This document shows, piece by piece, positions 2,070-26,616 of a stretch of DNA of 64,000 bases. This DNA is from a virus (taxonomy: Duplodnaviria; Caudoviricetes). Each line of letters opens with the position of its first letter. Positions within the stretch are counted from its first letter, which is position 1. A program made the translations under genes and the position numbers. Location: the IMG/VR virus record IMGVR_UViG_3300021376_000051, positions 1,205 through 65,204 of that record; one strand, 5' to 3'. The notes under the pieces are model-generated. The model searched no databases, had not been told where the DNA came from, and saw only the letters and a program-made list of their open reading frames with translations.

Positions 2070-2480
2070 TTACGTCTTATGTTCTTCTGTTCTGCCATCT
2101 TTCAAATCCGTAATCTCAACGATCATTCTCTTTGGGATTTTATTTACCTGAGCTGTTTCATCAGGACCAATAGTATTTGTTACTGCAAAATGATCTTCAT
2201 CTTCATGTAATACAAAACCAACAGTAACCATGATTGGTAGTGGAGACTTGCTAAATGATTGAGCCTTGCTCTTATCTAGCCACTCCTCACCACCTATAGT
2301 TACAGCATCAATCCAGAAGATCATAACCAAATCTGGACTTTCTTGTGGATAAATTACATTCTTAGGCAAAGAAGTATTCAGATCCGAGTACTTCTGAAAC
2401 ATCAAATTCTGCGTCTGGTTTTGGGCAGTCTGGAAGGAAGATTTGGTATCTTTCTTCTGTTTCTTTCTTGAGTTTTTCAA
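2070..2480 (-). CDS. Conserved-looking phage hypothetical protein (true start probably nearer 2370)
   Basis: W.DA...W / TVGFVLHED / IPK.MI pattern typical of small phage proteins; the annotated 5' part overlaps the RNAP gene. Confidence 0.6.
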   Translation of the reverse strand: MKNSRKKQKKDTKSSFQTAQNQTQNLMFQKYSDLNTSLPKNVIYPQESPDLVMIFWIDAVTIGGEEWLDKSKAQSFSKSPLPIMVTVGFVLHEDEDHFAVTNTIGPDETAQVNKIPKRMIVEITDLKDGRTEEHKT

Positions 2481-4797
2481 GTTGATTCTCCTTATGAATC
2501 TTTACAAACTCTTCTCTTAGAATCTTATGCATTACATCAATGTCTGTAGCATGTGTTCCATATGAATCATGGATCATAGAAAATGTATTAATACCTACAT
2601 TCATCATCCTACTGATAGACATAAACATATGTGCTGCATCTATCGCATGGATAAAGTTTGGAGAAACAGCGAGATACTGTGCTTTACCGTCGAGATCTTC
2701 CGTAACAGTTGAGAATACCAACTGCTGCCTGTTAAATAGTTCGGCATAAGAAACTCTTTCTAGTACTTCGTTGTATACATGGTGTACTTCAAACCCACTA
2801 GGAGTTGTCCATACCAATGGTTTGTTCATTCCATCTAGAACTTCAGCGACTGAACGCAACCATTCTTTACCCTTGTTTGGTGATTCCATAGTTTCACCTA
2901 GACCAGCTTGGATAGCGCGGCTAAGTTCTACTACAGCACCTCCTCTGGATTCTTTTGGAACCCAATCCACATGACCTTCTTGCTTTACATATTTCTGCAT
3001 TCCATAGAATGTAAGACCATATGCATCGCACATTGTAGGTCGTTTTGTTACAGCCCGTGGTAGTTTATTATTCCAGTTTAAAAGGAATACTTGATACCAA
3101 TTATTTTCAGGATGCTCTAGCATATACTGAGTACTAGAGTCTGCAACATACTGGTATAGATCTTCTGGTTTTTCACTGGGCAAGAGATTTGTAAGCTTTG
3201 CTAGCTTCTTGTTTCTCATAATAGCTGACCAATGTTGACCACCATTATTAGCACCATCCATTTGAATAGGAAGCTGAGTCATGCCATCCTTCCGGGCAAT
3301 TTCAAAGATTGCTGCAAGGCGTTGGAATGACTTGTTCTTTTTCTTTAGTGGATCAATCCATTCTTTATTTGAGTATGGATCTTCTGCAATACGCAGTAGC
3401 ATATCAATGTTTTCGTCTACCCACTTAACCCTATCTTCAAATGGCTTTTTGTCTTGGTCAAATAGATTTGCTAGGTGAACCTTAAGCCAGAACAAACCAC
3501 GTTCAGTTTGTTTCTTTGGCATTGCAAACTGTACAAGACCACGATCAAAATCTACTCCTTGTGGAGATAGTAACTCACACACAGAGTATGCACGACCCCT
3601 GAAGTCCAGGGTATATGGCATATAGAAGAAGTCCCAGTCTAGCATTTTCTTTGCTAGCTGTAGCCGTACAATCATTCGACTGCGGGCTTGTTCTTCTTTG
3701 TACCATTCTCCCCAAGCTTCATTGGATTCTTGCATCCATTTGGCTTGCTCTTCTTTTGCACCATCTGTAGGATATGGCCTAGTAAAAGCATAATCCTTGA
3801 ATGTAAATGCTGGTAGATTTGCAAGCTTATGATCGTTTTCAAACATAGTCTTCATAACAGAATAGACTTGTTTGTTTACTGACCATTCAGTTTCACTAAG
3901 GGCATTAAGCCCACGGAGAACAAGTTCACTTGGTTTTGAGTCCCAATCCTTGGGATCTGCACCTACTGGATGATATCTTTTAATCATCTTCTTCCGAACC
4001 CAAGGTGACAAGAAGCCACCATCTTCTTCGGTAGTGTGCTTTACAGGAGGACAGATCATTGGTCTGTAAACTAGGCAGGCAGTCTCAAGCATTTCGTGAC
4101 GCTTGCTTAGTTCTTTTAGAATCCAAGGGGCAAAACAAACCAACAATGATTTCTTGTTCTTACCATTCCAGTGTACCCGTGAGACAAGGATATCACTAGA
4201 AAGTGCAATGCGAAGCATGTTATGACCAAAGTCTTCCTTCTCTTTTGAGTTTAACTTAGGAAGCTTACCAACTTTAGTTGTAAATGCCTTGCACCGCTTT
4301 ACAGTCCAGTTTTTAATAAACTTAGACTGCCTACGCCAATCTTCTGAGAACTTCTTTTTTGCTTGTTGATAAGCAATAATTGAAATAACATCATCAGAGA
4401 TTAACTTTGATACTTGTTGGGCAACCGGAGCATTGCTTGGAATACCCATAGTATCGTCAAAGTTTTGAATTGTATTCCTGGTTAGGAATAAACGCATAAC
4501 ATTTCTGATTGTAATGTCTGCCATCTTAGCAGCACCAACACATAGAAGAGGTGCTAGCCAATCAGGCGACTTACGGTTATTACAACATTCATCAATCCAC
4601 TTCTGATAATAAGGAGTAAGATGTATGACTGCACTTTCAAGCAGAAGTTGCTCAGGCTTTCCTTCATCAACCGCACGATTGTACTCCTTCCAGTATTTTT
4701 CAATACCATTATCTAGTAGATCTTCTTCAAATAGCTTTTGATTTATAAGTCTATTGTCTCTTTGTTCTTTAGATAGTTGTAACCAAGCTGTGCTCAC
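2362..4797 (-). CDS. T7-like single-subunit DNA-directed RNA polymerase (canonical)
   Basis: LDFRGRAY; motif A DGANNGGQH; motif B RAVTKRPTMCDAYG; PNFIHAIDAAH; motif C IHDSYG; C-terminal YFFA. Confidence 0.97.
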   Translation of the reverse strand: MSTAWLQLSKEQRDNRLINQKLFEEDLLDNGIEKYWKEYNRAVDEGKPEQLLLESAVIHLTPYYQKWIDECCNNRKSPDWLAPLLCVGAAKMADITIRNVMRLFLTRNTIQNFDDTMGIPSNAPVAQQVSKLISDDVISIIAYQQAKKKFSEDWRRQSKFIKNWTVKRCKAFTTKVGKLPKLNSKEKEDFGHNMLRIALSSDILVSRVHWNGKNKKSLLVCFAPWILKELSKRHEMLETACLVYRPMICPPVKHTTEEDGGFLSPWVRKKMIKRYHPVGADPKDWDSKPSELVLRGLNALSETEWSVNKQVYSVMKTMFENDHKLANLPAFTFKDYAFTRPYPTDGAKEEQAKWMQESNEAWGEWYKEEQARSRMIVRLQLAKKMLDWDFFYMPYTLDFRGRAYSVCELLSPQGVDFDRGLVQFAMPKKQTERGLFWLKVHLANLFDQDKKPFEDRVKWVDENIDMLLRIAEDPYSNKEWIDPLKKKNKSFQRLAAIFEIARKDGMTQLPIQMDGANNGGQHWSAIMRNKKLAKLTNLLPSEKPEDLYQYVADSSTQYMLEHPENNWYQVFLLNWNNKLPRAVTKRPTMCDAYGLTFYGMQKYVKQEGHVDWVPKESRGGAVVELSRAIQAGLGETMESPNKGKEWLRSVAEVLDGMNKPLVWTTPSGFEVHHVYNEVLERVSYAELFNRQQLVFSTVTEDLDGKAQYLAVSPNFIHAIDAAHMFMSISRMMNVGINTFSMIHDSYGTHATDIDVMHKILREEFVKIHKENQLEKLKKETEERYQIFLPDCPKPDAEFDVSEVLGSEYFFA

Positions 4798-4958: not shown

Positions 4959-4990
4959 TGAGTTTATTTCCTTAGCTATATACTAGGTTA

Positions 4991-9010: not shown

Positions 9011-9143
9011 ATAATCCTTAGGTTTACCTAGGTATTTATTATTACTATAGTATTAATATTACCTAGGTTTGAAGCCCTAGCTATATGCTAGGATATTGGG
9101 ATAAAAACAGGTTGCAAGGATTATTAGTCCTTGCAACCCTAGG

Positions 9144-9389
9144 TTAGAATGGTAGACTGGTTGCCAAAGGCTCAGGAGCCGGCGGCGGTTCGGACTTTGG
9201 CGAGGGTCGGCTAAGCTTACCCTTGAAGGCAGGAGCCTTCGGGTGAGCAGCCCCCGAGTTATCCCACATACTGATGGGATACTTAACGCCATTGATCGTA
9301 ACATAACCATTGAGTGCAGGGCTAGCCGGGTTTTCCGAATTAACCTTCCACACATCTATCCGAATATTAGGTGCGTTTGTTTCTTGCAT
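9144..9389 (-). CDS. Small putative ssDNA-binding protein (DUF736-like)
   Basis: NPASPALNGYVTINGVKYPISMW...KAPAFKG; Pro-rich linker; C-terminal LPF. Confidence 0.6.
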   Translation of the reverse strand: MQETNAPNIRIDVWKVNSENPASPALNGYVTINGVKYPISMWDNSGAAHPKAPAFKGKLSRPSPKSEPPPAPEPLATSLPF

Positions 9390-9476: not shown

Positions 9477-9545
9477 TTATTCCTCTGATTCGTAGGAAGA
9501 CATTAGATCTTCCCATTCAGCTACTAGCTTCCAGTCTTCTTCCAT
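9477..9545 (-). CDS. 22-aa acidic micro-ORF
   Basis: AGGGAG RBS followed by MEEDWKLVAEWEDLMSSYESEE*. Confidence 0.4.
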   Translation of the reverse strand: MEEDWKLVAEWEDLMSSYESEE

Positions 9546-9569
9546 GAAACTCCCTGGTTAGGATTACGT

Positions 9570-10200
9570 TAACTTCTTAAAAGACATTCCACACATCTCT
9601 GCGAAGAATGCCATATTGAGGATTCCTAGTTCGACCTCAATCTTTATCAGGGGATGCCTGATAACTTTTGGCTAACTAATATGCCAAGGCTAAGGAAAAG
9701 ACAACCTAAGGGTTAGCCTAGGTTGTCCCATGTAGGTCTTTACATTATCTCTTACCAGAGTAGATATAGACCTTAGACTATCTACTCTTGGTTATCCAAT
9801 AACCGATGAAACGGTACATATTAGGGGTGTTTCATGTCCCTAACTGACTTCCGGCTTGAATTGAGTCCCCCATGTAGATCCGTCAACCTACACGGGACGC
9901 ACTATGCTTATGCTTCTATTTAACCTCGCATAGTCGAGGTATCCCTAATGCCGTGTTACCACCCTAGGATAAACGGGTGACACTTGCCTGCCTAAAGGCC
10001 GGTATAATAACCACAATGGTAGGCTTACCCATTGCTACACCCTTGCGGGGCGTTTATTACCTAGGTTTGCGGCCTAGGTAATATCCTATTAGGTTCTTCC
10101 CGTTGCAACGGTTCACCTCCTTAAGTTTGAAAGATATCCCACAGGTTTCCCCGTGGGATACCAGCTAGACTTGTTTCTAGCACGGGTGGAATGTACCACC
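9570..10200 (-). ncRNA. Large structured RNA with hairpins and tandem H-type pseudoknots
   Basis: Near-continuous stem-loops; GAAA/GCAA tetraloops and G-U pairs point to the minus strand; four hairpin loops have exact downstream complements. Confidence 0.7.
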
Positions 10201-10204
10201 TATT

Positions 10205-10321
10205 TGGCGTGGCCTGGCAGGATTCCAGCGGGTACCTGCATCATCCGATTTACGTGACCTAGCTTGGCCCTACGGGTCCTTTGATCAGATCGGTGCTTTG
10301 AATCGTTAAGCTACAGGCCAC
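10205..10321 (-). ncRNA. Aberrant tRNA-like element (8-bp acceptor stem + GCCA, expanded anticodon and T loops)
   Basis: GTGGCCTG/CAGGCCAC acceptor; GCTT/AAGC D-stem; CCGAT/ATCGG anticodon stem; GCAGG/CCTGC T-stem; encoded CCA. Confidence 0.75.
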
Positions 10322-10329
10322 AAGTGGGG

Positions 10330-10358
10330 ATTTTAACCGTGTTTTAAGCCACAGTCAA
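10330..10358 (-). promoter_or_regulatory. Sigma70-type promoter
   Basis: TTGACT-17 bp-TAAAAT; the predicted start (~10323) lies at the 5' end of the tRNA-like element. Confidence 0.75.
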
Positions 10359-10452
10359 CCACTAGTTTGTTGTCCACAATTTATTAATCCCCTATGGACG
10401 TTTGCTTGGGATACCCTAGTTGGCTTAATCCAACTACCCGGGCAGGGTTGGC

Positions 10453-10539
10453 ACCTAGAATGCCATTAGAAGCCACGGAACTGGTGACCCCTACCATGTG
10501 GGGGTTGAGACAGTGCATGACCTCTAATGGAAGCCTAGG
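10453..10539 (-). ncRNA. Long rod-like RNA hairpin
   Basis: CCATTAGAGGTCATG pairs with CGTGGCTTCTAATGG over 15 bp including G-U pairs (minus strand only), closed by CCTAGG/TCTAGG. Confidence 0.5.
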
Positions 10540-17000: not shown

Positions 17001-20000
17001 CCTGTAATAATGAAGTATCTCTTAGTCTAACTGGGAACACATCATTTTTACTGGTTTTTTCTAGCATGCCTACTTGGGTTTGTAGCTCTACGGTTTTATC
17101 TGTTAATAGTCTAAAAGCACCAGTAAGACTTTCAACATGCTTCTGTTCTTTTACTCCGGTTAGGATTGGTCTAATACCTAATAAATTCCTTACTACATCC
17201 TGAATAATAGCGTGTTGCATATTAAGGTTATTGGGATATTCTGAACTTAGGTCTGCCGACTTAATCATTACATTATAAACATAAGGATCAATCAGTAGTT
17301 TATCGTTTTGAATACCACTAACATCAGACTGTAAAGAACCTTTTGTTGTTACAGAAGCCTGGTCAATTAGTTCTGTTAGAATAGCTAATGGTGCAAATGG
17401 GCTATTATAGGTTAATGAAGTTGCATTCATAAACCCTTGTAATAGGTTGTTTTGCAGTATGGTTGAGATCATTAACTCGGAACCAACAAAGGGTATACTT
17501 CTAATAATACCAGCAGCTGTTCCTTCATCTGCTCTTTCTCCTCGTCTATCAATACCACGTTGAATAAGTCCAACTAAGAATGCTCTTCTAAATCCATTAT
17601 CAAGAAGATCTCGTTCTGTTAGTCTTGAACCCTTTGTTGTTGAGAAATCATCTAAATCAGCTAAAGTTCTTGCAACAAACCCAACACTAATATTCATAAA
17701 TGTATTAATGTCTTTTTCTCTAATCTTTTGTTTAAGATCATTTATCTTTGAGTCTATAGCTGCAAGTGTTGCCATATTTGGAATTGGCTTGCTACTTTCT
17801 ATCTTATAGTTTTGTTCTTCTACTCTTAGCTCTGAAATCAAGATATTAAGATCAGCCATTTCTGTTGGTGTTAATTGTCTATTGTTTTCCGTAGCAACGA
17901 CACGTTTAAATGCATTGAGTTGAGCATCAGGATTTCCAACATCAGCTCTAGTAGACATCCCTGTTCCAATAACAGCCATTACAACATCTTCAGCTTCTTT
18001 CATAAAGCTAGAGTATTCTGGGTTATCATTTAGTTTATTAAATGTAATAAGGACTCGTTGAGCCATTTTCTTAATAGCATAGAAAGCATTTTCCCAAAGT
18101 CTATAAGCCCTACCAACTGGTGCATACTTGTCTCTTAGTTTTGTAATAGCTTCCTTCGATCCTAGTACATTTCTTAGTAAGAAGAATGCACCCATATGGG
18201 CAAAGAACTCATCAGTATTGCTAAGTGCATACTCTACTTCTTGTTCTAAGTTTTCGTATGGTTTGCCATTATTCATGGCTAATAGCATTTCTCTAATTAC
18301 TGGTTTTGATCTTGTTGTATCAAATAGTCCAGTAACTTTACGCCACTCGGGTGAGTTTGTTTTTACATACTTTAGTCTAGCAATGTGAACTAATTCTTCT
18401 GCAAATCTAAATAGGATTTCATTTTCTGCTGTAACCTTCATTGCTGTTATGTTTTGACCTATTACATATCTACCATTTCTCTTAGCAGCAAACATAATAC
18501 CGTCTTTACCTTCTCCAGCAAATGATTCTATTGTTAGTTCTTCTACAATATCTGGGTTATGCTTTGCCAGGTTACCAATAAGCATAAGCTTCATATCCCG
18601 TGCTCTTGCTGATATTACACCACCAGAAACAAGACCATCAAGATAGTTTACAAACTTTTCTGCTGATTCTCGGTGTGCTGGGTTGCTAAATGACATTATA
18701 AAGTCATCTGGATCAGTATATACAGCCGGAGAAGATGCATCAGAGTAGATCTCGTCAGCAATTTCTGGTTCTAGTTGTGGTCTGGTAAAGTCTTCAACAG
18801 CCGCTCTGATATTAGACACAACTGCTGGTGTTAGTTCTTTACCGCTTGCTGTGGCCATAGCTCTAACAAACACAGCATCGCTTGTTAGGTTTCTTGGTTC
18901 AGCAACAACTCGTTCCATTGCTGCTCTAGTTACATAGTATTCTTTTGCATTATCATGTGGTTCGTTATCCATGACGTACATTAATGCAGATACAACATCA
19001 TCAATTTGTTGCTTTTGGCTGGTCTTTAAACCTTCTGCATTAAAGTATCTATATACAGATCGCTCTGCTGCATCGTTTCCTGCTACTTTATACATCATAG
19101 CAGCAATCTTAATTAAAGCATTTGGAGACTTTACAGACTTTGGTAACTGTGTTTTGTTGTTATTTGCCCATACAATAAAATCACCTATTTGAGATGCTTT
19201 ATCTTCAAATCCAAGTTGTTGAGCTTTTACAAGAACTTCAGTTAATACAGTTAAGAATGGAGCATCTGCAACAGAGATGTTAATCTTTTGCTGTTTAACT
19301 GTTTTAAAGGCTCTACCCGCTACTATAGTTGTATCACTATTTGGTATTGTTATTGTAATTGTAGCTGGATTATCTCCAGAAGACCGCAAGTAATACCCCA
19401 AATCAAGAACATCTTTGGACTTTCCATCAATGTTTACCCTTCTGTAATCTTTAAGCATAGCTGGTTTTACAGTACCTGGGTCTGTTTCATACAAGAATGC
19501 AATACTTTCAGATAATTCATCTTCCATATCACGCATTCTTTCAAACATTTGGGCTTCTTTTTCTTGAATTACTGAGTCAATCTCAGTTTTAAACCCATAG
19601 ATTTCTTTGTTTGTTTGAATAGCAAGTTCAATTTCTGAGAATAACTTATAGTTTTCTAGGTTGTTTAGCATCTGAATCAAACCCTGTGGGGTATTAAGCC
19701 ATAGTGTTGATGGGTTATCAACCTGTGATGTTATCTGGGCATACGGATCTGTTGGACCCTGTACGGTAAGCTTTTCTAGTTGCTCGTCTTCTCTAAATAC
19801 TTTATTGTTTTTATCTCTTAGTGTTACTCTATTTTCTGAGTTGACAGCAAAGTAGAAATTCTTTAGCAATTCTTCTGCAATACTTTGCTTTTCAAGTAAT
19901 GTAGCATTCCAGATTTTCTTATATAAAGCCGAGTCTGTTCTTGGATCAAGACTTTCAAGAATAACAAACCCGTTAGAATCATATTTTACATTTGGATCTG

Positions 20001-23000
20001 TTTCATATGGCGTTCCGACAATCATCTTAGTTGCTACTTGCTTAGCAGTTTCGGATGCACCTATTACTTGGTATAGTTGCATTACTTCTCTACCAAAGGC
20101 AACTACAGGAATCTGGGTTGTAGATGGGATTCCGGCTCTACCCTGTCTTCCACGGACAATTACTCCAGGATCTAGGGTAATTCCAAACTCCATGCTCATT
20201 AATCTTTCGATCTTACCCCTAGTACCTAGATATGTTAGTACTTGTAACCAACCAGGTTCTTCACCGAATGTTGCTTTGATATCGTTAATGGTGTCTAAAC
20301 TTAGTGTTCTTTCCTCTAATGTTGCCATTAGATCGAGTGGAGAGAATCGCTTTAATCCACTAAGAGTAGCAGAGCTAATTCCAGCTGTTCTTAAGAACCC
20401 ATCAATATATCTAATTCTAGCTTCTCTAACTAGTTCGTCTTTTTCTAGAACTTCATCAATTGATGTTTTAGACTGAGATGCCTTTTGTAGTGTGTCAATA
20501 GCTGGGTTTAGTGCTTTATTTCTTAGTTGCATAACTGCAAAGATTCTACCCCAATCCTTTGCTTCTAATGACTCATCTAAACCATGTAACTTAGCAAATT
20601 CTGTTAAGACATTCTGTAGTCTAATAGCATTTTGCTCTACTCTTTCTTTTTGGCCAAGAGCAATAGCTCCAATTACATCATCAGAACTTTGTGGAATCAT
20701 TGGCATATTTTGAGGTTCATAAGGTGACTTATATCCTCTCAATGACTCTGGAACAAATCCGTTTGGATTAGAACTTAAGGCACCCTCAACCTCTGCTAGT
20801 TGTTGCAAAGCTTGGTTTTGTTTAATTCTGGCTGCGTGTTGTGCTGCTGCTAGTGCATAAATACCACGTTGTGTAAAGTCAATATCTGCATATGCTGGTC
20901 TTAAAGCACCGTATCCATCGACAGTAGGATCTAGAATAATCTCTTCTCTGCTACTTACTGCATCAGAAGCAAGAGTTCTAAATCTAAGTCTAGCATATGC
21001 TGTTCCTGCTGCTTTTTTATTTCTATCATTTCTTTCTTTCGCGGTTATTTCAATTCCACCAACAGTATACTTACGAATCTTTGGTGCTTTTTCAAGGTAC
21101 TTTGATACTTCTGCTGCTTCTATTTCTTTTGCGGATCTTGCTTGTAGATCTAAGAAATACTTTGTTCTATTTTCATTTATTTCTGGTTTATATCCAGTAA
21201 CAATAGTTGGTCTATAGAACTTGGCTAGGTTTAATAGTATTTGTCTAGCAAAGATCTGTTCAAAGTCTGCTCTTGCTGCTTGTTTTTCTTCAATCTTCCA
21301 CATACCATAAGGATTGTAATCTCCACCTGGCTCCATAACCCTTGGTTGGGCATACTTTGAGCTTTCTGGACCAAGGCCATACCAACTAACCATGTGGTTT
21401 CTACCGCTTGCGGTTTCTACTCCATATCTAAAGTACACTTCTCTATTCAAGTATCTAGTATAGTCTTCTTTATCAATGTGTACACCCATTACAAATCTAT
21501 GAATGTCTGCTACATCTTCATCTAATACAAATGGAGTAGTAGCTCGTCTATTTAAAGCATAAATCATTAGATGATTTTGTGCTGCTTCTTCGCCGCCAGC
21601 AAGTGCTACATTCATTTCATAGATAAACGTGGCATATTCTTCTGGACTCATGCTATCAACTGCTTTGCCTTCCCAAATAGCAGCAGCTTTATCAAGTCTT
21701 GCTTTCCACTTTGTTAGCAATTCTGACTCAATTTCTTGTTCAATTTCTTCAAGTTTTCTATTACTTGGATTTACAATTCCACGAACTCTTGCTACAGACT
21801 TAGCCGTTTCTTTTGCAGAAACAGAAATAAACTCTTGCATACTACCCAATCGTTCCATTCTTGATCGCGCTTCACCAAGAGCTTTGGAGCCATTCAAAGT
21901 ACTGCTATAGGTGCTTGAGTTTAGTCTTTGTGCGTTGCTTAGTAATATATTTCGTAAGTCTTGGATATTTTCTCTACTAAACCCAATAACTTCATCAATT
22001 AATCTAGAACTTCCAATTAACTGCGATCTTACAGACATACGAGCTAGGAATTCAATTTCATCTTCAGTTAGGTCAAGATTTGTTTCTTTTACCTTTGTCT
22101 GTAAACCCTGTAGAATACCGGGATAGCCTGCTTGATAGAATGCCGGTGTTACAGCACCCTTTAGGAATTCTTTTAGTTGCGCTCTATTCTTTTCATCGCT
22201 TGGATCGCCCATCTTAGCTCTTAATGCTTTAGCTAACTCAGCATCCGCTGGTGTAATATTAAATTTAGATGGATTAGTAGCCATCTCATTTAGCATATTT
22301 GTACCAAAGTATGGGCTATTTTTATCACTGGTTCCAAGTAAGATGTCTATAAACATAAATCTTGGGTCACCTAAATCTTTACCAGCAACAACAACCTTTT
22401 TACCAGCAAATGTAGCTGGAGCACCTGTTTCATCTGTTGCTTTTAGAACCTGTAACAGATCATCCATAACTTTAAAATTGCCGTCATTAAAGGCAATCAA
22501 CATTGCTAGGATGTTATGCTTACCGTTATACTTGTAGTCTGATTTATTTGATGTATTCCAGGCAGCATCCCCATTGGTTCTAAGGATTTCCATACCACGA
22601 TCAAGTACATTTTCAAGCTCCTTAACACCATCTGGTGTCATTAAGCCATAACTAATCATATGTGCTAACTGGTCTACAGCACCACCCATAAGTGCAGCAG
22701 CGGTTGGTCCACCAGCACTTATAAAGTCTTGCATATAAAATACTGGTTGGGTATCTTTAAAGAATCTTGGTGGAGCTTTCATTCCCATGTAAGTACAGTC
22801 ATGGTTAAATGACATAAGTAATCTGGGAATCTCATATAAATGTTCTTCTACTAGCAACCTTCTTTCTGCTAGGTTTGGAATAGCAGCAAATGGACTACGA
22901 ACAGTAACATCAGGACTTATGTCTAGAACCTGTTGTCTAGCAAAGAAACTAATTGGATCTCCTGGTTTTTGAGTTAGTGGAGTCTCTAGCCAAGAGTATA

Positions 23001-26000
23001 CTGAACTTAGGACAGCAGGATCACTAAGGTCCATATCAAGAATAGCATTTACTCTTTGCTGGAGTCTCCATCCCTCATAGGCTAACTCTTCATTATCAAG
23101 AGAGTGTGGCTGTGCCATGTTGACTTTATCTTTACTTGGCATACCAAATATCTTTCTTCTACCCTTGCCACCCCTAGCTAGTAGTGTTCTGTCATCCATT
23201 TGCATAACAGACTCAACTTCATTTCCGCGCTGTAGCAGTACGTCTGTTACTGAAATGTCTGGTTTTTGATCCATCATTACTTGTGCAAAAGCAATACCAA
23301 CCTCGTCTGCTGGCTTCCAGTCTAAAGACCCATTACCAAAGTCTTGTAATGCACTTAGACCTGGGACAAATGGTTTAAAGTAATCAAGAATTACTCTTTC
23401 CCAGTATTGAGACTCTGATTCTGTTTCTTTTCTTGGCTCTGCTTTAACTCTATCAAGCATTGCTTTATTAAATCTATTCTTAACTTCTGACTTAGAAATA
23501 AACTTAATAAATGAATCAAGTACAGCGTTTTCATATCTTTCTGCACTTCTAACAGAGTTGCTGAACAGGCCATCTTGTTTAAACTTTCCGACCGGCATAG
23601 AGCCATCTAGATTGTCATTTATACTAACAACAGCTTCATTTCTATCGTTAATGTTGTAATTTAGTGATAAAACAAATCCATACTTGGTAAATAACTCATC
23701 TAGTAGTGGGTTTATTGCTCTTTGGTTTTCTAAGGCAATGCGTCTAAGAGATCTATCAAAGTTTGTTTCTTCTGCGGCTCTTCCCTCAAGACCATTAATA
23801 ACCGCATTAATCTTAGCTTCGTTAGTTGTTGGATCACCCATTAAACTTTTGAGATACCAGTTAATTAGTATATCATAAACAGCATTAGCATCATAACCAT
23901 AAGAACTTACCATATAGGTTTGTTCTACAATATCAGTTACTTTTGGTGTTATTTTAGTTATATCGCTTAGTGTATCAAGTGGAATTAACCCAGTAAACTC
24001 AATGCTGTTATTTAGCAGTAAATTACTCTTTGGTGGGGTAATTGAAATTGTAGTTACTTCATCTGAGTCAGAACCCTGTAGTGCTAGACTGCTTATACCA
24101 GGATCAGACATATGTAAGAATAAAGCTAGTGTTGTTTCTGTATCGTTTTCTGCATAAGCATCAAACTCAAAGAAGTCTCCAGTTTCTTGTCCTCTTCTCC
24201 AAAGTTCTGTAATACCGCCTTCACCAAGTTTGATTTCTTCACCCGTTACAAGATTAACAGGATAGCCTGTAGTAAATTGAATCCTTGGTTTACCTGTTGT
24301 TGGGTCTGGGTAACTAAGTACTGGTGTTCTTGTTGGTAGATTATTTTTTGCAAGTTCTTTAAGTTTTTTACCCTTAACTCTAGACTTTTCAAACATATTA
24401 ATGCCTGGAGCTTGGCTTGTAATATTAGCAAGCAAGTCAAAGCTTCTTAAAGATACTCTAGCAAGTAAATCTGAGTCACTAGTAAAGAATCGTAGTTGTG
24501 GTAAATCAAAGCCATTACCGTTGTGTGTAATTAGCTTATATCCCATATTCTGTAGTTCTTCGATTCTCTTTAATACGCTAGTAACTTGATCATTAGTTAG
24601 TACTTGTCTTTCTTTTGCTTCTGTTGTTTTAACATCTACAAGATCAGTGCCATTATTTACTAAGACTTCATTTGATCTAGTAAGTGCAGCTGGGTTAGAT
24701 GAATCATATGTAGCAATCTGAATGCTATAGATACCATCTACTTTTCTATCCGGGTCATTAACATCACCAAAGGTTTCAATATCAATTGTAATTAACTTTG
24801 AGTTATCTTTATCAAACCCATCTGCAAAGTCTGGCATTGTTTCAGGATCGCCACCATGAAGCTTTATTAAATTCCTAGACATACTTAATTTATCATCAAT
24901 ACCAACTTGAGATATTACTCTTCTTTGCATTGTTTTTAAGTATGCTTTTTGAAATGCTTCTGGATGGATATCCATAAGACGGTCACCTAAAACCTGTCTC
25001 AATAGCTTTTCATTTATTGTTCCGTTAAAGTACTTAAAGCCGAATACACTTCGGAGTCTTCTAACCGATCCCTCAATGACTCTAGCAGCCTCTCTGTGAG
25101 ACTTTACTCGGTTCTTTGCGGGAATAGTACCTCTATTATTATCTGGGTGTACAGCAACCTGGTCGGCTGTTAAAGACGGGGCAAATGTTGGATCGATTGC
25201 TTCTGGACTAGAAGCATCAACTACTCCACGGCCTACAGCAAATGACTTTAGGGTATTTAACGCTTCTTCTGTTAGTAAGGCTGGGTCTTCTGTAAAGAAT
25301 GATCCATCATAACTAGATAGTAACTGGTTTCTCCAGATTTGACTTGCTTCTTTAACTTCTGCTTCATTCATTGGAGACAAGTCTTCAGTTTTACCGTCTT
25401 CTAGTTTTTCTCTCTTACCAATTACGGTTTTAACCGCAAACTCACCAAACATTTCTTCAACCTGAGAAACAACAACAGCTCCGCTTCTTTCTATTTCATT
25501 ATTTAGATAAGACAATCTAAGATTCATACCCTCAGTAGCAATTGTCATTAACTTTCTTTGGTTAATAATCATTTGCTGGGATGTCATAGATACATCTCTA
25601 ACATCCCTAACTAAAGATGTTAACCCAAGTTCCATCATTCTAGCTTGAACTTTATTAAGTTCTTTTTCAAGGTTAAATTTAAACTTGGTTAGGCTTTCTG
25701 CTCTCTTGGTCATATCAATACCAGTAATATCTTTTAGACTGGCAATTGATAAACTGGTTAATGCTTTTTTAAGTTCGCTGTTTAGTTTTCCGAGTTGTTT
25801 TACAGCTTCTTTTCTATCCTTCTTTGCTTTATCTTTTTCATCCTTAAAGGACTTTTTCTTTGCTTTGTCTTTAGTTAAGATAATCTTAGATTCTAGTGCA
25901 GCAATCTTACCTTCTAACAATCTGATATCTAATTCTTTTGCTTTTATTTCTTGTTGCTTTGCTTCAACCTTAGAATCTGCATCTATTACTGTAGATGTTT

Positions 26001-26616
26001 TACCAGACTCTTCAATTAGTTGTGCAATGTAAATAAAGTTTTCAAGGATAAATTCCTTTTCTAGTAAACCTTGACTTTGGTTTAAAAGGCTTTCTACGTT
26101 TTCTTCTCTTTTCTTTAAACGCTCTTCTTCAATGATTATTTTTTCTTGTAGATCAGCAACTATATCTTCGTCACCAGCTGCTTCGTGAACCTTAACAAGT
26201 TTTTCTAAATATTCAATATGGTTTCTTCGGTTTATAGCAGCCGTAGCAAAACTCTTTTCGCCATCTAACTCAACACCACGTTTCTTAAGTAGATCAAAAA
26301 ACTTAATTGCTTTTTCGTCACCTAAAGCATTTCTAATTACTCTACCAATACTACCCTTTACATTATCAGATGTCAAGAAAGCTTCATCGATAATGTCTGT
26401 TAGCTCGTAGAATATTGTTACTAACTCTTTCTTTTCGTCTTCTGTTAGTGGATTCTTATCTACTTTTGTTAGGAACCCCAGTTTATCTAGTGTTTCAGAA
26501 TCTGATTTAATTGTTGCTTCTGTCTTAACAAACTCCATTGCCTTGGATACGGACATACCTTTGGCTATAAGCTCTATCAACTTTCTCTGTAAACTGGGTA
26601 AATCGCAAAGTGGCAT
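14098..26616 (-). CDS. Giant 4172-aa polyvalent internal virion protein (DEDD exonuclease + polymerase-like motifs + zincin-like segment)
   Basis: Uninterrupted ORF closing the internal virion protein cluster; DIET / HNGNGFD / YAEND; DYKYNG; KGAVTPAFYQAG; EELVH...EFFA. Confidence 0.85.
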   Translation of the reverse strand: MPLCDLPSLQRKLIELIAKGMSVSKAMEFVKTEATIKSDSETLDKLGFLTKVDKNPLTEDEKKELVTIFYELTDIIDEAFLTSDNVKGSIGRVIRNALGDEKAIKFFDLLKKRGVELDGEKSFATAAINRRNHIEYLEKLVKVHEAAGDEDIVADLQEKIIIEEERLKKREENVESLLNQSQGLLEKEFILENFIYIAQLIEESGKTSTVIDADSKVEAKQQEIKAKELDIRLLEGKIAALESKIILTKDKAKKKSFKDEKDKAKKDRKEAVKQLGKLNSELKKALTSLSIASLKDITGIDMTKRAESLTKFKFNLEKELNKVQARMMELGLTSLVRDVRDVSMTSQQMIINQRKLMTIATEGMNLRLSYLNNEIERSGAVVVSQVEEMFGEFAVKTVIGKREKLEDGKTEDLSPMNEAEVKEASQIWRNQLLSSYDGSFFTEDPALLTEEALNTLKSFAVGRGVVDASSPEAIDPTFAPSLTADQVAVHPDNNRGTIPAKNRVKSHREAARVIEGSVRRLRSVFGFKYFNGTINEKLLRQVLGDRLMDIHPEAFQKAYLKTMQRRVISQVGIDDKLSMSRNLIKLHGGDPETMPDFADGFDKDNSKLITIDIETFGDVNDPDRKVDGIYSIQIATYDSSNPAALTRSNEVLVNNGTDLVDVKTTEAKERQVLTNDQVTSVLKRIEELQNMGYKLITHNGNGFDLPQLRFFTSDSDLLARVSLRSFDLLANITSQAPGINMFEKSRVKGKKLKELAKNNLPTRTPVLSYPDPTTGKPRIQFTTGYPVNLVTGEEIKLGEGGITELWRRGQETGDFFEFDAYAENDTETTLALFLHMSDPGISSLALQGSDSDEVTTISITPPKSNLLLNNSIEFTGLIPLDTLSDITKITPKVTDIVEQTYMVSSYGYDANAVYDILINWYLKSLMGDPTTNEAKINAVINGLEGRAAEETNFDRSLRRIALENQRAINPLLDELFTKYGFVLSLNYNINDRNEAVVSINDNLDGSMPVGKFKQDGLFSNSVRSAERYENAVLDSFIKFISKSEVKNRFNKAMLDRVKAEPRKETESESQYWERVILDYFKPFVPGLSALQDFGNGSLDWKPADEVGIAFAQVMMDQKPDISVTDVLLQRGNEVESVMQMDDRTLLARGGKGRRKIFGMPSKDKVNMAQPHSLDNEELAYEGWRLQQRVNAILDMDLSDPAVLSSVYSWLETPLTQKPGDPISFFARQQVLDISPDVTVRSPFAAIPNLAERRLLVEEHLYEIPRLLMSFNHDCTYMGMKAPPRFFKDTQPVFYMQDFISAGGPTAAALMGGAVDQLAHMISYGLMTPDGVKELENVLDRGMEILRTNGDAAWNTSNKSDYKYNGKHNILAMLIAFNDGNFKVMDDLLQVLKATDETGAPATFAGKKVVVAGKDLGDPRFMFIDILLGTSDKNSPYFGTNMLNEMATNPSKFNITPADAELAKALRAKMGDPSDEKNRAQLKEFLKGAVTPAFYQAGYPGILQGLQTKVKETNLDLTEDEIEFLARMSVRSQLIGSSRLIDEVIGFSRENIQDLRNILLSNAQRLNSSTYSSTLNGSKALGEARSRMERLGSMQEFISVSAKETAKSVARVRGIVNPSNRKLEEIEQEIESELLTKWKARLDKAAAIWEGKAVDSMSPEEYATFIYEMNVALAGGEEAAQNHLMIYALNRRATTPFVLDEDVADIHRFVMGVHIDKEDYTRYLNREVYFRYGVETASGRNHMVSWYGLGPESSKYAQPRVMEPGGDYNPYGMWKIEEKQAARADFEQIFARQILLNLAKFYRPTIVTGYKPEINENRTKYFLDLQARSAKEIEAAEVSKYLEKAPKIRKYTVGGIEITAKERNDRNKKAAGTAYARLRFRTLASDAVSSREEIILDPTVDGYGALRPAYADIDFTQRGIYALAAAQHAARIKQNQALQQLAEVEGALSSNPNGFVPESLRGYKSPYEPQNMPMIPQSSDDVIGAIALGQKERVEQNAIRLQNVLTEFAKLHGLDESLEAKDWGRIFAVMQLRNKALNPAIDTLQKASQSKTSIDEVLEKDELVREARIRYIDGFLRTAGISSATLSGLKRFSPLDLMATLEERTLSLDTINDIKATFGEEPGWLQVLTYLGTRGKIERLMSMEFGITLDPGVIVRGRQGRAGIPSTTQIPVVAFGREVMQLYQVIGASETAKQVATKMIVGTPYETDPNVKYDSNGFVILESLDPRTDSALYKKIWNATLLEKQSIAEELLKNFYFAVNSENRVTLRDKNNKVFREDEQLEKLTVQGPTDPYAQITSQVDNPSTLWLNTPQGLIQMLNNLENYKLFSEIELAIQTNKEIYGFKTEIDSVIQEKEAQMFERMRDMEDELSESIAFLYETDPGTVKPAMLKDYRRVNIDGKSKDVLDLGYYLRSSGDNPATITITIPNSDTTIVAGRAFKTVKQQKINISVADAPFLTVLTEVLVKAQQLGFEDKASQIGDFIVWANNNKTQLPKSVKSPNALIKIAAMMYKVAGNDAAERSVYRYFNAEGLKTSQKQQIDDVVSALMYVMDNEPHDNAKEYYVTRAAMERVVAEPRNLTSDAVFVRAMATASGKELTPAVVSNIRAAVEDFTRPQLEPEIADEIYSDASSPAVYTDPDDFIMSFSNPAHRESAEKFVNYLDGLVSGGVISARARDMKLMLIGNLAKHNPDIVEELTIESFAGEGKDGIMFAAKRNGRYVIGQNITAMKVTAENEILFRFAEELVHIARLKYVKTNSPEWRKVTGLFDTTRSKPVIREMLLAMNNGKPYENLEQEVEYALSNTDEFFAHMGAFFLLRNVLGSKEAITKLRDKYAPVGRAYRLWENAFYAIKKMAQRVLITFNKLNDNPEYSSFMKEAEDVVMAVIGTGMSTRADVGNPDAQLNAFKRVVATENNRQLTPTEMADLNILISELRVEEQNYKIESSKPIPNMATLAAIDSKINDLKQKIREKDINTFMNISVGFVARTLADLDDFSTTKGSRLTERDLLDNGFRRAFLVGLIQRGIDRRGERADEGTAAGIIRSIPFVGSELMISTILQNNLLQGFMNATSLTYNSPFAPLAILTELIDQASVTTKGSLQSDVSGIQNDKLLIDPYVYNVMIKSADLSSEYPNNLNMQHAIIQDVVRNLLGIRPILTGVKEQKHVESLTGAFRLLTDKTVELQTQVGMLEKTSKNDVFPVRLRDTSLLQDRNLARDAFDIIKKELVSKNIAMLDANGKYATFSPLLGYTSGIIPLNPEEMLVADEASLSKVVADIISGKDTIANGGREAIINWAVRTAAKKSIGRTGITTVADYASTQSLVRIHKDVQEIIHKILWQTRDGDVTLEKTFGGMTTQNMDMVVLAFKKAFLIPTDEKTAERWNTKFQRDDVRKHFSISDRNMPHGLTGEMTGILGPSDVLTIEFLNRVTKSSALFKQDSVFLTSRDVFLSTNPNMLKLFETNLSTLAKGTGKIAYDAIERKMVQQLSGIPNAYFNISQILDMFEAENDQTVNSNSRNITLFDQRGERNLKIDNNALMRQGINRLRLALLETKGNLVRDTTDMGQSLADWNNRAKTLVLMRFGMNINTATYMVEGVMSTMSQMFQESNPFVGVISSFRFLRDMVEDGIVNAANAIVDTSGFPGKVTDASGRTKRQFFPIRQRKIRRLAQNTLSFVEETTSPMLPSNLLSMDPSSDLIEKLGFWDRWKLNRSRSNSSAMKSVRVAMDAAGNRLIVKLERMGHLNRFRDAYRAAAIKPTTVGQIKELLRQNKLGFIDQEVAVYIIQSGLLEGKRLEALRYIRTEKNTFRGVILFQDMMDVELELKDSTSPRSTGPVPRPFLTRNELLAELSLAKTAMAKFQEFNTTRGMVVRKALDAPRSDNLATDLLTFYKSYTSLFVAQQIIRRGSTASFPKMGMMLATSSLLDFTYNLVLALARGTLSYEDILEKLNRKDNISEIGRYIMRNPAFSNNILGLIANASLAAATGRSQGGMLSSVAEAGLMQQFRDIYKMVEAFASPQETWDAKTWAAYKALGPWLIANGYSLPIRVAVAQAWGTSSPTSGGSYRGAKGDISAIIDSMSTPVEDTTNALIREMFPEYPTVLQKETQYNNIPKRHLEEYLKRSSERLQQPQLPQPKQPQLPQPQQPQLPQPQPQQPQPQQTSTSVDLQKANQPIQAPEALL
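14160..14262 (-). repeat. Pro/Gln coding tandem repeats (QPQLPQPQ)
   Basis: Repeated tgtggttg(c) units. Confidence 0.85.

What the first reader, a model, noticed from the sequence alone, without database searches (positions are those of the whole stretch)
2362..26616. Possible three-polymerase transcription cascade in a T7-like phage
Seen: a canonical RNAP (2362-4797), a divergent minimal RNAP (11074-12963), polymerase motif A/B-like segments in a giant internal virion protein, hairpin repeats before the first genes, and a small ssDNA-binding-like gene (9144-9389). Known: T7-type phages normally have one RNAP, whereas N4-like phages use an injected giant vRNAP on hairpin promoters and then a minimal RNAPII that needs an ssDNA-binding activator. 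Inference: an N4-like programme (injected polymerase, then minimal RNAP, then T7-like RNAP) built on a T7 virion and replisome.
Basis: partly seen in the sequence, partly recalled or inferred. Interest (0 to 1): 0.88.

Follow-up and report, generated by a model that had tools for sequence, protein, structure and literature searches.

The report
T7-like phage with extra RNA polymerases
An uncultured lake-water relative of phage T7 carries its normal RNA polymerase, a second stripped-down one in an odd G+C-rich gene island, and a giant virion protein that probably hides a third, very divergent polymerase-like part, which points to a staged start of infection not described for T7-type phages.

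Summary
The window is 64,000 of the 65,204 bases of an IMG/VR virus record, a T7-like podophage with all genes on the minus strand.

Two single-subunit RNA polymerases are real:
- RNAP1 (2362-4797) is full-length and T7-type.
- RNAP2 (11074-12963) has a core only and keeps its catalytic residues.

RNAP2 lies in a 54% G+C island in a 38% G+C genome, directly behind the 4,172-aa giant gene. This layout recurs in every relative I could read:
- 10 of 10 regions;
- 12 of 13 loci.

RNAP2 avoids the three codons read by the phage's own tRNAs, and the late virion genes are rich in them. I therefore read the island as the first-expressed block.

The giant protein has:
- a clear PolB-type DEDDy exonuclease domain;
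- invariant motif A-, B- and T/DxxGR-like segments;

Against that, no palm could be modelled, no sequence search links it to any polymerase, and the motif order is odd. A third polymerase is plausible but not shown, and the cascade order is inference.

This scan noted the same lineage before on other DNA. I found no paper describing it.

The parts
2362..4797 (-). RNAP1: full-length T7-type single-subunit RNA polymerase, 811 aa
   Evidence: PF00940 at 286 bits; phrog_414 at E 1.7e-162 over the whole length. Best known relative is 29% identical (Agrobacterium phage Atu_ph03). 34 IMG/VR loci are 64-89% identical.
4971..4987 (-). Candidate phage promoter motif CCTAGYATATAGCTARG, copy upstream of RNAP1
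   Evidence: Two exact copies (here and 9076-9092) plus one with 2 mismatches at 26814-26830. 2 of 100 shuffles reach 3 matches, so this is weak.
9076..9092 (-). Second copy of the candidate promoter motif, just after a terminator-like hairpin (9109-9139)
9144..9389 (-). 81-aa early protein, weakly ssDNA-binding-like (DUF736-like look-alikes)
   Evidence: phrog_18154 at E 0.005. Atlas score 0.94 to viral clusters auto-named DUF736. 56% and 37% identical copies lie in the distant relative L008.
9517..10560 (-). About 1 kb without ORFs, structured, downstream of the RNAP2 operon. It holds the Pistol ribozyme and a tRNA-like stretch.
   Evidence: No minus-strand ORF. 48-54% G+C between 9801 and 10600, 41% in the 9601-9800 bin. 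Depth spike and loose ends at 10104-10327 in lake metagenomes.
9862..9939 (-). Pistol self-cleaving ribozyme
   Evidence: Rfam RF02679 at 43.8 bits (gathering score 34.5). Also found 1.1-1.3 kb downstream of RNAP2 in 4 of 8 relatives' stretches, at 38.9-58.6 bits.
10330..10358 (-). Sigma-70-like promoter TTGACT-17-TAAAAT inside the ORF-free stretch
   Evidence: 10 of 12 consensus positions match. The scan as a whole is not enriched: 6 found against 4.4 expected.
10555..10590 (-). Intrinsic-terminator-like hairpin (16 pairs plus a T run) that closes the RNAP2 operon
10685..11017 (-). orf110, island ORF of unknown function
   Evidence: Conserved only in the close relative L004, at 94%. No family hit.
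11074..12963 (-). RNAP2: core-only single-subunit RNA polymerase, 629 aa, GC3 0.73
   Evidence: The family profile aligns to T7 RNAP residues 304-645 plus a motif C block, so the T7 N-terminal domain has no counterpart.
13007..13067 (-). Hairpin cassette copy directly upstream of RNAP2 (11-bp stem, 10-nt loop, then smaller hairpins)
13089..13439 (-). orf116, island ORF with a hydrophobic N-terminus
   Evidence: 82% identical in L004 only. GC3 0.62.
13464..13525 (-). Hairpin cassette copy upstream of orf116
13540..14013 (-). orf157, first ORF of the G+C-rich island
   Evidence: 83% identical in L004 only. GC3 0.56.
14098..26616 (-). Giant 4,172-aa protein, probably a virion or ejection ('polyvalent') protein
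   Evidence: Last of three huge late genes after the terminase. Late-gene codon usage. 2 Cys in 4,172 residues. Homologues of 3,856-4,375 aa.
24127..24819 (-). DEDDy 3'-5' exonuclease domain of the giant protein (residues about 600-830)
   Evidence: ExoI D612/E614, ExoII N699..F703-D704 and ExoIII Y821..D825 are conserved. The family profile hits the archaeal PolB exonuclease domain 2jgu_A at E 9.2e-6. PF13482 is matched by 9 of 10 members, best E 1.1e-11.
21337..22809 (-). Polymerase-like module of the giant protein (residues about 1270-1760), with motif C-like NHD, motif A-like D1360, motif B-like K1486/Y1494 and T/DxxGR-like R1739
   Evidence: These residues are invariant in 35 sequences, except Y1494, which is invariant in the 16-sequence alignment A4 but not listed among the invariant or nearly invariant columns of the 35-sequence one. 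Motifs were compared. No significant sequence match to any polymerase.
21979..22374 (-). Fingers-like subdomain (residues 1415-1546), the only confidently folded part that matches a polymerase
26632..34028 (-). Two further large late proteins (1,138 and 1,326 aa), presumed ejection or core proteins
   Evidence: No family hit. Position and codon usage match the giant gene.
63440..63821 (-). Phage tRNAs Lys(UUU), Leu(UAA), Arg(UCU)
   Evidence: Their codons AAA, UUA and AGA are rare in RNAP2 and common in the late virion genes.

Best explanation
This is a lake-water lineage of T7-like podophages (records of about 62-82 kb) that runs a multi-polymerase transcription programme.

Shown:
- The genome encodes a canonical T7-type RNAP (RNAP1).
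- It also encodes a second, core-only single-subunit RNAP (RNAP2).
- RNAP2 sits in a conserved G+C-rich island directly behind the gene of a 4,172-aa, almost cysteine-free late protein.
- That protein carries a PolB-type DEDDy exonuclease domain and a very divergent module with a T7/mitochondrial-RNAP-like fingers subdomain.

Inferred:
- The island is the immediate-early block. Its genes avoid the AAA, UUA and AGA codons served by the phage's own tRNAs, so the naive host can translate them before those tRNAs exist.
- RNAP2 then transcribes the A+T-rich early and middle genes, including RNAP1.
- RNAP1 transcribes the replication and virion genes, as in T7.
- The giant protein is ejected with the DNA. 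Its polymerase-like module may make the first transcripts of the island from the repeated hairpin cassettes, as N4 vRNAP does from hairpin promoters.
- The island transcript ends at an intrinsic terminator. The following ORF-free RNA is cut by a conserved Pistol ribozyme.
For: Two RNAPs.

Co-occurrence of RNAP2 with RNAP1:
- The RNAP2 family profile finds a second RNAP frame in 11 of 18 related records, and in 7 of 8 records that are at least 90% complete.
- The eighth such record (G005) has a syntenic 638-aa ORF that hhalign links to the family at 91% probability.
- 10 of 10 extracted regions and 12 of 13 loci with at least 3.6 kb behind the giant gene hold a 586-648-aa ORF at 50-59% G+C there.

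The island is conserved and is not a transfer scar:
- L008 shares only 27% RNAP2 identity yet has the same layout at 55-58% G+C.
- Contigs of independent lake metagenomes bridge the giant/island border (records 8, 16 and 27).

Codon partition, in 11 of 11 genomes:
- RNAP2: GC3 0.53-0.81, TTA 0-0.02, AGA 0-0.14.
- Giant gene: GC3 0.12-0.53, TTA 0.05-0.61, AGA 0.47-0.75.
- The phage tRNAs read exactly AAA, UUA and AGA.

Giant protein:
- Exonuclease domain.
- Invariant motifs.
- Fingers match ranked first twice and filling the top 12 of 400.
- 2 Cys in 4,172 residues.

Hairpin cassettes or long perfect hairpins lie between the giant gene and RNAP2 in 11 of 13 stretches examined. Two of those 13 (L004 and the window) are near-identical.

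Pistol ribozyme.
Against: - There is no expression data. No RNA run was listed for the stretch, so the order RNAP2 then RNAP1 is inference from codon usage and position.
- No repeated promoter consensus was found for either RNAP. The one motif found is weak.
- The non-coding part of the island is also G+C-rich, which codon adaptation does not explain.
- Giant protein: Pfam, PHROGs (including phrog_2206, virion RNAP), PDB phmmer and profile searches, and hhalign against RNAP2 and N4 mini-vRNAP are all negative or non-significant.
- AF2 confidence is low (mean pLDDT 52.7 and 67.6). The putative motif A and C regions have pLDDT 31-48.
- Foldseek found nothing at E <= 0.001.
- The motif order is not the canonical T/DxxGR-A-B-C.
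- The physical genome ends are unknown, so 'first DNA to enter' is not shown.
- A sigma-70-like promoter and intrinsic terminators in the island fit host RNAP as well.
Confidence: 0.5

Rival explanations
1. T7-style start with two polymerases only. Host RNA polymerase transcribes the island and the early genes, and RNAP2 and RNAP1 divide the later classes. The giant protein is an ejection or polyvalent protein. Its exonuclease is active, but its polymerase-like segment is a relic, a nucleic-acid-binding module, or a different enzyme.
For: - There is a sigma-70-like promoter (10 of 12) and hairpin-plus-T-run terminators in the island.
- Host-like codon usage of the island fits host-driven early expression equally well.
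- All sequence-based polymerase tests on the giant protein are negative.
- The palm was not modelled.
- T7 early mRNAs carry inter-gene hairpins cut by RNase III (established knowledge, recalled), which would explain the cassettes.
Against: - D1360, K1486, R1739 and H1272/D1273 are invariant over 35 sequences that are 21-65% identical to the window's protein. Y1494 is invariant in the 16-sequence set. That argues for a constrained active site and not a relic.
- T7 RNAP is the top fold match for both models, mitochondrial RNAP ranks second for the first, and the two fill the re-aligned top 12. DNA polymerases and other helical proteins score lower.
- The promoter scan is not enriched over shuffles: 6 found against 4.4 expected.
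Confidence: 0.33
2. RNAP2 is an exchangeable accessory or counter-defence cassette and not a fixed stage of the programme. It could be a back-up polymerase that escapes host inhibitors of RNAP1, or that serves a few genes. It is swapped between lineages together with its G+C-rich island.
For: - RNAP2 diverges far faster than its neighbours. In G005, RNAP1 is 82% identical and the giant segment 46%, yet the syntenic ORF is invisible to the RNAP2 family HMM and seen only by hhalign.
- The small island ORFs are conserved only in the near-identical relative L004.
Against: - The position, size, strand and G+C excess of the ORF are kept in 12 of 13 loci and in 10 of 10 regions.
- The catalytic residues are invariant in the family.
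- A dispensable cassette would be expected to be missing in some complete genomes. It is found in 7 of 8, and remotely in the eighth.
Confidence: 0.12
3. The G+C-rich block is an assembly chimera or a recent foreign insertion, and RNAP2 does not belong to this phage.
For: 54% G+C against 38% in the rest of the window, with many overlapping spurious ORFs on both strands.
Against: - The same protein cluster sits on contigs of 68,574-72,016 b from several sources.
- Independent metagenome contigs bridge both borders.
- The island recurs in relatives with 25-27% RNAP2 identity. Over that divergence a foreign composition would have decayed (inference).
Confidence: 0.02

Closest known systems
Coliphage T7 / Autographiviridae transcription programme (host RNAP, then one phage single-subunit RNAP)
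   Same: - T7-type RNAP.
- Primase-helicase, family A DNA polymerase and exonuclease.
- Portal, scaffold, capsid, tail tube A and B, and terminase.
- Unidirectional genome.
- Large internal or ejection proteins.
   Different: - A second RNAP gene.
- Records of about 62-82 kb, against roughly 40 kb for T7 (recalled).
- The large proteins follow the terminase gene, and one is 4,172 aa with an exonuclease and a polymerase-like module.
- G+C-rich early island.
- Ribozyme-bearing ORF-free RNA.
- RNAP1 is at most 29% identical to any phage in the GenBank set.
Coliphage N4 (Schitoviridae) three-polymerase programme: injected vRNAP gp50, RNAPII gp15+gp16, then host RNAP (Lenneman and Rothman-Denes 2015, PMC4496689, abstract seen)
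   Same: - A giant virion protein next to two other large late proteins.
- A minimal RNAP without the T7 N-terminal domain.
- Hairpin-forming repeats before the earliest genes.
- The T/DxxGR segment of the giant protein resembles that of N4 vRNAP by eye.
   Different: - No detectable sequence similarity of the giant protein to N4 vRNAP.
- RNAP2 is one chain and not two. It scores far closer to T7 and mitochondrial RNAPs (E about 1e-35) than to N4 gp16 and gp15 (8e-9 and 5e-8).
- A T7-type RNAP, and not the host enzyme, is the likely late polymerase.
- The hairpin stems are 10-13 bp, against 5-7 bp in N4 (recalled).
- The giant protein also has a DEDDy exonuclease.
Phage 'polyvalent proteins' (Iyer et al. 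2017, PMC5512222, passages read)
   Same: - A very large multi-domain protein, presumably delivered with the DNA.
[quoted passage not shown]
- The Atlas look-alikes of the C-terminal 2,042 aa include clusters with LPD38 (95% of members) and LPD39 (11%) at scores 0.93-0.94. This is a lead only.
   Different: - The combination of exonuclease and ssRNAP-like fingers did not turn up in that paper: its only 'exonuclease' occurrence is a reference title.
- No Pfam LPD domain was found in the giant protein.
Family B DNA polymerase 3'-5' exonuclease domain (e.g. Pyrococcus PolB, PDB 2jgu)
   Same: The ExoI, ExoII and ExoIII motifs align. Profile E 9.2e-6.
   Different: Here the domain is embedded in a virion protein, about 530 residues upstream of the polymerase-like module, with no PolB polymerase domain.

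Membership tests
T7-type single-subunit RNAP (PF00940) - RNAP1 | Full-length match including the N-terminal domain and palm/fingers motifs | tested here: met
   PF00940 at 286 bits. PF14700 (N-terminal domain) at 28.2 bits, just under its 30.1 cut-off. phrog_414 at E 1.7e-162 over positions 7-816 of 816.
T7-type single-subunit RNAP (PF00940) - RNAP2 | Pfam match above cut-off, with catalytic Asp (motifs A and C) and Lys/Tyr (motif B) | tested here: met
   46.8 bits against a cut-off of 22. D311, K370, Y378 and D563 are invariant in 22 sequences. The family profile hits T7 RNAP at E 3e-35.
T7-type single-subunit RNAP - RNAP2 | N-terminal promoter-binding domain (T7 residues 1 to about 300) | tested here: not met
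   Profile positions 90-343 align to T7 residues 304-645. About 90 profile positions remain upstream, and they have no match. phrog_414 aligns only from its position 486.
N4 RNAPII (gp15 + gp16) | Closest sequence affinity to gp15/gp16, and a two-subunit split | tested here: not met
   RNAP2 is a single 629-aa chain. hhalign to gp16 gives 96% probability (E 2e-9) and to gp15 95% (E 5e-8), collinear. T7 and mitochondrial RNAPs score E about 1e-35.
N4 RNAPII (gp15 + gp16) | Dependence on an ssDNA-binding cofactor (gp2/Drc type) | not testable with these tools
   The only candidate is the weak 81-aa protein.
N4-type virion RNAP (phrog_2206; PDB 2PO4/3Q0A) | Sequence or profile similarity to the mini-vRNAP domain | tested here: not met
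Single-subunit (right-hand, Pol A-like) polymerase fold - giant protein | Fingers subdomain with an O-helix Lys/Tyr | tested here: met
Single-subunit (right-hand, Pol A-like) polymerase fold - giant protein | Palm with two catalytic Asp in motif order A...C | tested here: inconclusive
   Invariant D1360 lies in a D-x4-G-x-H..A-(L/M) context like motif A. The candidates for motif C (H1272-D1273, D1718) are out of canonical order. The region has pLDDT 31-48.
DEDDy 3'-5' exonuclease (PolB-type exo; PF13482/PF10108/PF03104) | ExoI DxE, ExoII Nx2-3(F/Y)D, ExoIII Yx3D | tested here: met
   Motifs are conserved in at least 8 of 10 sequences. PDB profile E 9.2e-6. PF13482 is matched by 9 of 10 members, best E 1.1e-11. 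The window's own copy is below the Pfam cut-off (19.2 against 22 bits).
Virion / ejection protein | Presence in the particle | not testable with these tools
   Indirect only: gene position, late codon usage, and 2 Cys in 4,172 residues.
Pistol ribozyme (RF02679) | Score above the Rfam gathering threshold | tested here: met
   43.8 bits in the window. 38.9-58.6 bits in 4 of 8 relatives' stretches. Cleavage was not tested.

The most novel reading that the evidence does not exclude
These phages are a living intermediate between the T7 and N4 strategies, with three single-subunit-type polymerases acting in series.
1. An ejected 4,172-aa protein has an RNAP module with a rearranged palm (motif C-like HD before motif A, T/DxxGR after motif B). 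It sits beside a proofreading-type DEDDy exonuclease, a pairing I know of in no RNA polymerase (recalled; not searched). This protein transcribes a G+C-rich, host-codon-adapted island from DNA hairpins.
2. The island's core-only RNAP2 then turns on the early genes and the T7-type RNAP1.
3. RNAP1 makes the late genes, which depend on the phage's own tRNAs.

Infection would then need no host RNA polymerase at all.
Probability: 0.3. Interest if true: 0.9.

Novelty: new variant of a known kind. Interest (0 to 1): 0.76.

Why it matters
T7 is the textbook case of a one-polymerase phage programme, and N4 the textbook case of three polymerases. A widespread freshwater lineage that combines a T7 chassis with extra polymerases bears on several questions.

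- It would show how such cascades evolve.
- It offers a family of very small single-subunit RNAPs (about 580-660 aa; 45 cluster representatives) of possible biotechnological use.
- It gives a natural example of codon-usage partition between immediate-early genes and tRNA-dependent late genes.
- It places a Pistol ribozyme, whose biology is unknown, at a fixed point of an early transcript.
- If the giant protein is an active polymerase, it would be a further, very divergent form of injected RNAP, fused to an exonuclease.

Tried and rejected
Searches that found nothing
- tblastn of RNAP2 and of 3,000 aa of the giant protein against 50,697 phage records: no match.
- The search for related loci in viral contigs with P0002, P0010 and P0012: nothing.
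- Promoter hunting by repeats, exact k-mers and pairwise 20-mers in intergenic regions gave no consensus.
- ARAGORN with introns did not call the tRNA-like stretch on the minus strand.

Structure and profile tests on the giant protein
- Foldseek against the PDB with both giant-protein models gave nothing at E <= 0.001.
- Several T7, yeast mitochondrial and N4 RNAPII chains did appear among the non-significant rows.
- Small-profile tests were not significant. A7 against the PDB gave nothing. A7 and A8 against the RNAP2 family gave hhalign probabilities of 1.5% and 4.1%. In both, the single alignment fell on motif B and on T/DxxGR respectively.

Sequencing runs
- No RNA holder was listed for window 9000-14500, so there is no evidence either way on expression.
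- All four laid runs were contigs, so no molecule ends and no genome termini could be read.

Rejected readings
- Assembly chimera or recent transfer (see the rival explanations).
- RNAP2 as a recent duplicate of RNAP1: no recognisable similarity outside the motifs.
- The giant protein as a member of the N4 vRNAP family.

Literature
- Three searches found no paper on a T7-like phage with two single-subunit RNAPs. One search returned only plant-organelle papers.
- Searches (listing; passages of PMC10747016) showed only a speculative vRNAP assignment in an unrelated podophage.
- Supplements were not consulted.

Not done
- No phylogeny of the RNAPs.
- No complex prediction.
- No reading of the first 1,204 bases of the record outside the window.

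Full report
CONTEXT

The window is bases 1205-65204 of a 65,204-base IMG/VR virus record. The record is classed linear and CheckV estimates it 96% complete. All long ORFs lie on the minus strand.

PHROGs identifies a T7-type gene set:
- primase-helicase (61693-63435), family A DNA polymerase (59991-61712), exonuclease, ribonucleotide reductase;
- portal (53548-55152), scaffold, major capsid (45064-46386);
- tail tube A and B, a fibre, and large terminase (35191-36852).

After the terminase come three very large ORFs of 1,326, 1,138 and 4,172 aa. Then comes a 4-kb block of 54% G+C in a genome of about 38%. Small early-looking genes and the T7-type RNAP follow. Three tRNAs, Lys(UUU), Leu(UAA) and Arg(UCU), lie at 63440-63821.

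RNAP1

The 811-aa product of 2362-4797 matches PF00940 at 286 bits and phrog_414 end to end at E 1.7e-162. Its best relative among 50,697 GenBank phage records is only 29% identical. IMG/VR, however, holds 34 loci at 64-89% identity, many on contigs of 62-82 kb. So this is a populous uncultured lineage.

RNAP2

The 629-aa product of 11074-12963 passes the Pfam cut-off for PF00940 (46.8 against 22 bits) and matches phrog_414 at E 6.7e-20.

An exhaustive HMMER search of 1.84 billion cluster representatives found 45 relatives at E <= 1e-3, mostly 570-660 aa long. In a 22-sequence alignment the motif A Asp (D311), motif B Lys and Tyr (K370, Y378) and the motif C Asp (D563) are invariant, and H562 is nearly so.

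The family profile hits mitochondrial and T7 RNAPs in the PDB at E 2e-36 to 3e-34.
- Profile positions 90-343 align to T7 residues 304-645.
- A second block covers motif C.
- N4 RNAPII scores only 8e-9 (gp16) and 5e-8 (gp15).

hhalign confirms a collinear relation to gp15 and then gp16, at 95% and 96% probability.

RNAP2 is therefore a core-only enzyme. It lacks a counterpart of the T7 N-terminal promoter-binding domain. In architecture it is comparable to N4 RNAPII, but it is not its close kin.

THE ISLAND AND ITS CONSERVATION

The cluster of proteins at least 90% identical to RNAP2 occurs on contigs up to 72,016 b from several sources. Contigs from independent lake-water metagenomes bridge the border between the giant gene and the island. 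The block is therefore not a chimera.

The same layout recurs in distant relatives.
- In L008, RNAP2 is 27% identical. A giant ORF at 35% G+C is followed by 55-58% G+C around the small RNAP.
- All 10 regions taken from related virus records show a 3,856-4,182-aa ORF (or, in one record, a 1,471-aa piece cut by the end of the stretch) followed by a 586-642-aa ORF. That ORF is 12-21 G+C points richer.
- Of 13 further loci with at least 3.6 kb behind the giant gene, 12 show such an ORF at 50-59% G+C, and 10 of these 12 match the RNAP2 family HMM.
- The family profile finds a second RNAP frame in 11 of 18 records, and in 7 of 8 that are at least 90% complete.
- The eighth (G005) has a syntenic 638-aa ORF linked to the family only by hhalign, at 91% probability. 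Its RNAP1 is nonetheless 82% identical to the window's.

RNAP2 thus evolves, or is exchanged, far faster than its neighbours. The small island ORFs (157, 116 and 110 aa) are recognisable only in the near-identical L004.

CODON PARTITION

| Gene(s) | GC3 | AAA per Lys | TTA per Leu | AGA per Arg |
|---|---|---|---|---|
| RNAP2 (window) | 0.73 | 0.06 | 0 | 0 |
| Three giant late genes (window) | 0.17-0.23 | 0.56-0.86 | 0.32-0.50 | 0.70-0.76 |

AAA, UUA and AGA are exactly the codons read by the phage tRNAs. The contrast holds in 11 of 11 genomes examined.

My reading is inference. The island must be translated by the untouched host, so it keeps host-like codons. Late genes rely on the phage tRNAs. 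This accounts for a compositional island that persists over deep divergence. It does not account for the raised G+C of the adjacent non-coding RNA region.

REGULATORY FEATURES

Hairpin cassettes. Two copies of a 43-53-nt cassette lie at 13025-13067 and 13483-13525, with shorter flanking repeats from 13007 and 13464.
- Each has a perfect 11-bp stem and sits directly upstream of RNAP2 or of orf116. None of 100 shuffles gives a match.
- Between the giant gene and RNAP2, 11 of 13 stretches examined carry direct repeats and/or perfect 9-13-bp hairpins. L071 and L077 showed none.
- Four relatives' stretches (L069, L073, L074, L076) share stems of the type GCTCCC(C)TAG, and two more (L068, L070) have related 13-bp stems.
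- The stem sequences differ between lineages, so structure, in DNA or in RNA, seems to be what is kept.
- N4-type hairpin promoters and T7-type RNase III or stabiliser sites are both possible. I could not separate them.

End of the operon. A strong terminator-like hairpin (10555-10590) closes the RNAP2 operon, and a sigma-70-like promoter follows at 10330-10358.

Pistol ribozyme. The roughly 1-kb ORF-free stretch holds a Pistol ribozyme (9862-9939, 43.8 bits). The ribozyme recurs 1.1-1.3 kb downstream of RNAP2 in 4 of 8 relatives' stretches.

Promoters. No repeated promoter consensus emerged for either RNAP. One motif, CCTAGYATATAGCTARG, occurs upstream of RNAP1 and after the orf81 terminator, but it is statistically weak.

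THE GIANT PROTEIN

Homologues of 3,856-4,375 aa exist in all relatives. The protein has 2 Cys in 4,172 residues. Its gene has late-gene codon usage and sits at the end of the virion module. All this fits an ejected protein, but none of it proves that.

Exonuclease domain. Residues about 600-830 form a DEDDy exonuclease.
- ExoI D612/E614, ExoII N699..F703-D704 and ExoIII Y821..D825 are conserved.
- The family profile hits the archaeal PolB exonuclease domain at E 9.2e-6, with all three motifs aligned.
- 9 of 10 members match PF13482, best E 1.1e-11.

Invariant residues. Further on, these are invariant over 35 sequences that are 21-65% identical to the window's protein: H1272-D1273, D1360, G1365, H1367, D1417, K1486, G1497, D1718 and R1739. 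Y1494 is invariant in the 16-sequence alignment.

Motif resemblance by eye (T7 motif text and N4 residue numbers are recalled, N4 residues checked on the fetched record):
- D1360-x4-G-x-H..A-M-L resembles motif A of T7-type RNAPs, including this phage's own RNAP1.
- (R/K)1482-x3-K1486-x7-Y1494 resembles motif B.
- T-A-S-G-R1739...P-E-S-S-K resembles the T/DxxGR segment of N4 vRNAP.

The order is not canonical. The HD lies before motif A, and the T/DxxGR-like segment lies after motif B.

Negative sequence tests. Pfam, PHROGs, PDB phmmer and profile searches, and hhalign against the RNAP2 family and N4 mini-vRNAP all fail to support a polymerase. In the two small-profile comparisons the single reported alignment did fall exactly on motif B and on T/DxxGR.

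Structure predictions. Two AlphaFold2 runs were made.

| Residues | Sequences in alignment | Mean pLDDT |
|---|---|---|
| 1000-2050 | 16 | 52.7 |
| 1150-1850 | 35 | 67.6 |

Only parts fold with confidence, notably residues 1415-1546. For this part:
- Foldseek itself gives nothing significant.
- The stretches holding the putative motifs A and C have pLDDT 31-48.

I conclude that a T7/mitochondrial-type fingers subdomain is likely. A complete active polymerase is plausible, at roughly 55-60%. Membership in the N4 vRNAP family is not supported.

The Atlas look-alikes of the C-terminal half include clusters with LPD38 and LPD39 domains of phage polyvalent proteins. This is a lead only. The paper that defined those proteins lists an N4-like virion polymerase among their phage-specific domains (PMC5512222, passages read).

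THE 81-AA PROTEIN

Evidence that it binds ssDNA is weak:
- phrog_18154 at E 0.005;
- no Pfam hit;
- Atlas clusters auto-named DUF736 at score 0.94.

It is conserved in L008 in two copies, 56% and 37% identical. It is therefore a real early gene.

VERDICT

- Two phage RNAPs on a T7 chassis are firm.
- A third, injected one is an open but serious possibility.
- The order of action is inferred from codon usage and gene order only.

I found no description of such phages in the paper library. Earlier notes of this scan describe the same lineage on other DNA. They disagree on the giant protein. I did not use them as evidence.

Noticed in passing
window 9862-9939 (-); L069 17861-17927; L008 12928-13006; L004 8159-8236; L070 18496-18557: A Pistol self-cleaving ribozyme sits at a fixed place, 1.1-1.3 kb downstream of the RNAP2 gene on the same strand, in the window and in 4 of 8 relatives' stretches. 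This is a conserved genomic context for a ribozyme class whose function is unknown.
   Followed up: partly
window 10104-10327: Summed contig depth jumps to 146-163 against about 2-12 in neighbouring bins in two lake metagenomes. Many loose ends fall at 10127-10130, 10163, 10203 and 10327. One contig of run X6 joins 10251 to 10284, skipping 32 nt. This looks like a tRNA-like element shared with more abundant genomes, with a 32-nt insert here. ARAGORN does not call it.
   Followed up: partly
window 10113-10123 (-): An 11-nt perfect Shine-Dalgarno-like TAAGGAGGTGA lies inside the ORF-free stretch. Its complement equals the usual 3' end of 16S rRNA (recalled). Seen.
   Followed up: no
window 14165-14260: A tandem TGTGGTTG-type repeat encodes the Pro-Gln-rich C-terminus of the giant protein. 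Its depth in metagenomes is very high, so it is shared widely.
   Followed up: no
window 6279-7280 (-): A 333-aa early protein with a DUF932 domain (E 1.7e-39).
   Followed up: no
G018 (82,250-b record), C1:39651-41163: The RNAP1 homologue appears as two adjacent frames of 620 and 259 aa. This could be a split gene, an intervening element or a frameshift.
   Followed up: no
L080 6977-19374: The giant gene of this relative is interrupted: 3,249 aa, then an 860-aa frame at the same low G+C.
   Followed up: no
L073 46-120 (-): In this relative a tRNA gene lies about 1.4 kb downstream of RNAP2, where the window has its ORF-free RNA region.
   Followed up: no
window 26632-34028 (-): The 1,138- and 1,326-aa late proteins have no family match at all, and they have the most extreme A+T-rich codon usage in the window (GC3 0.17-0.18).
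   Followed up: no
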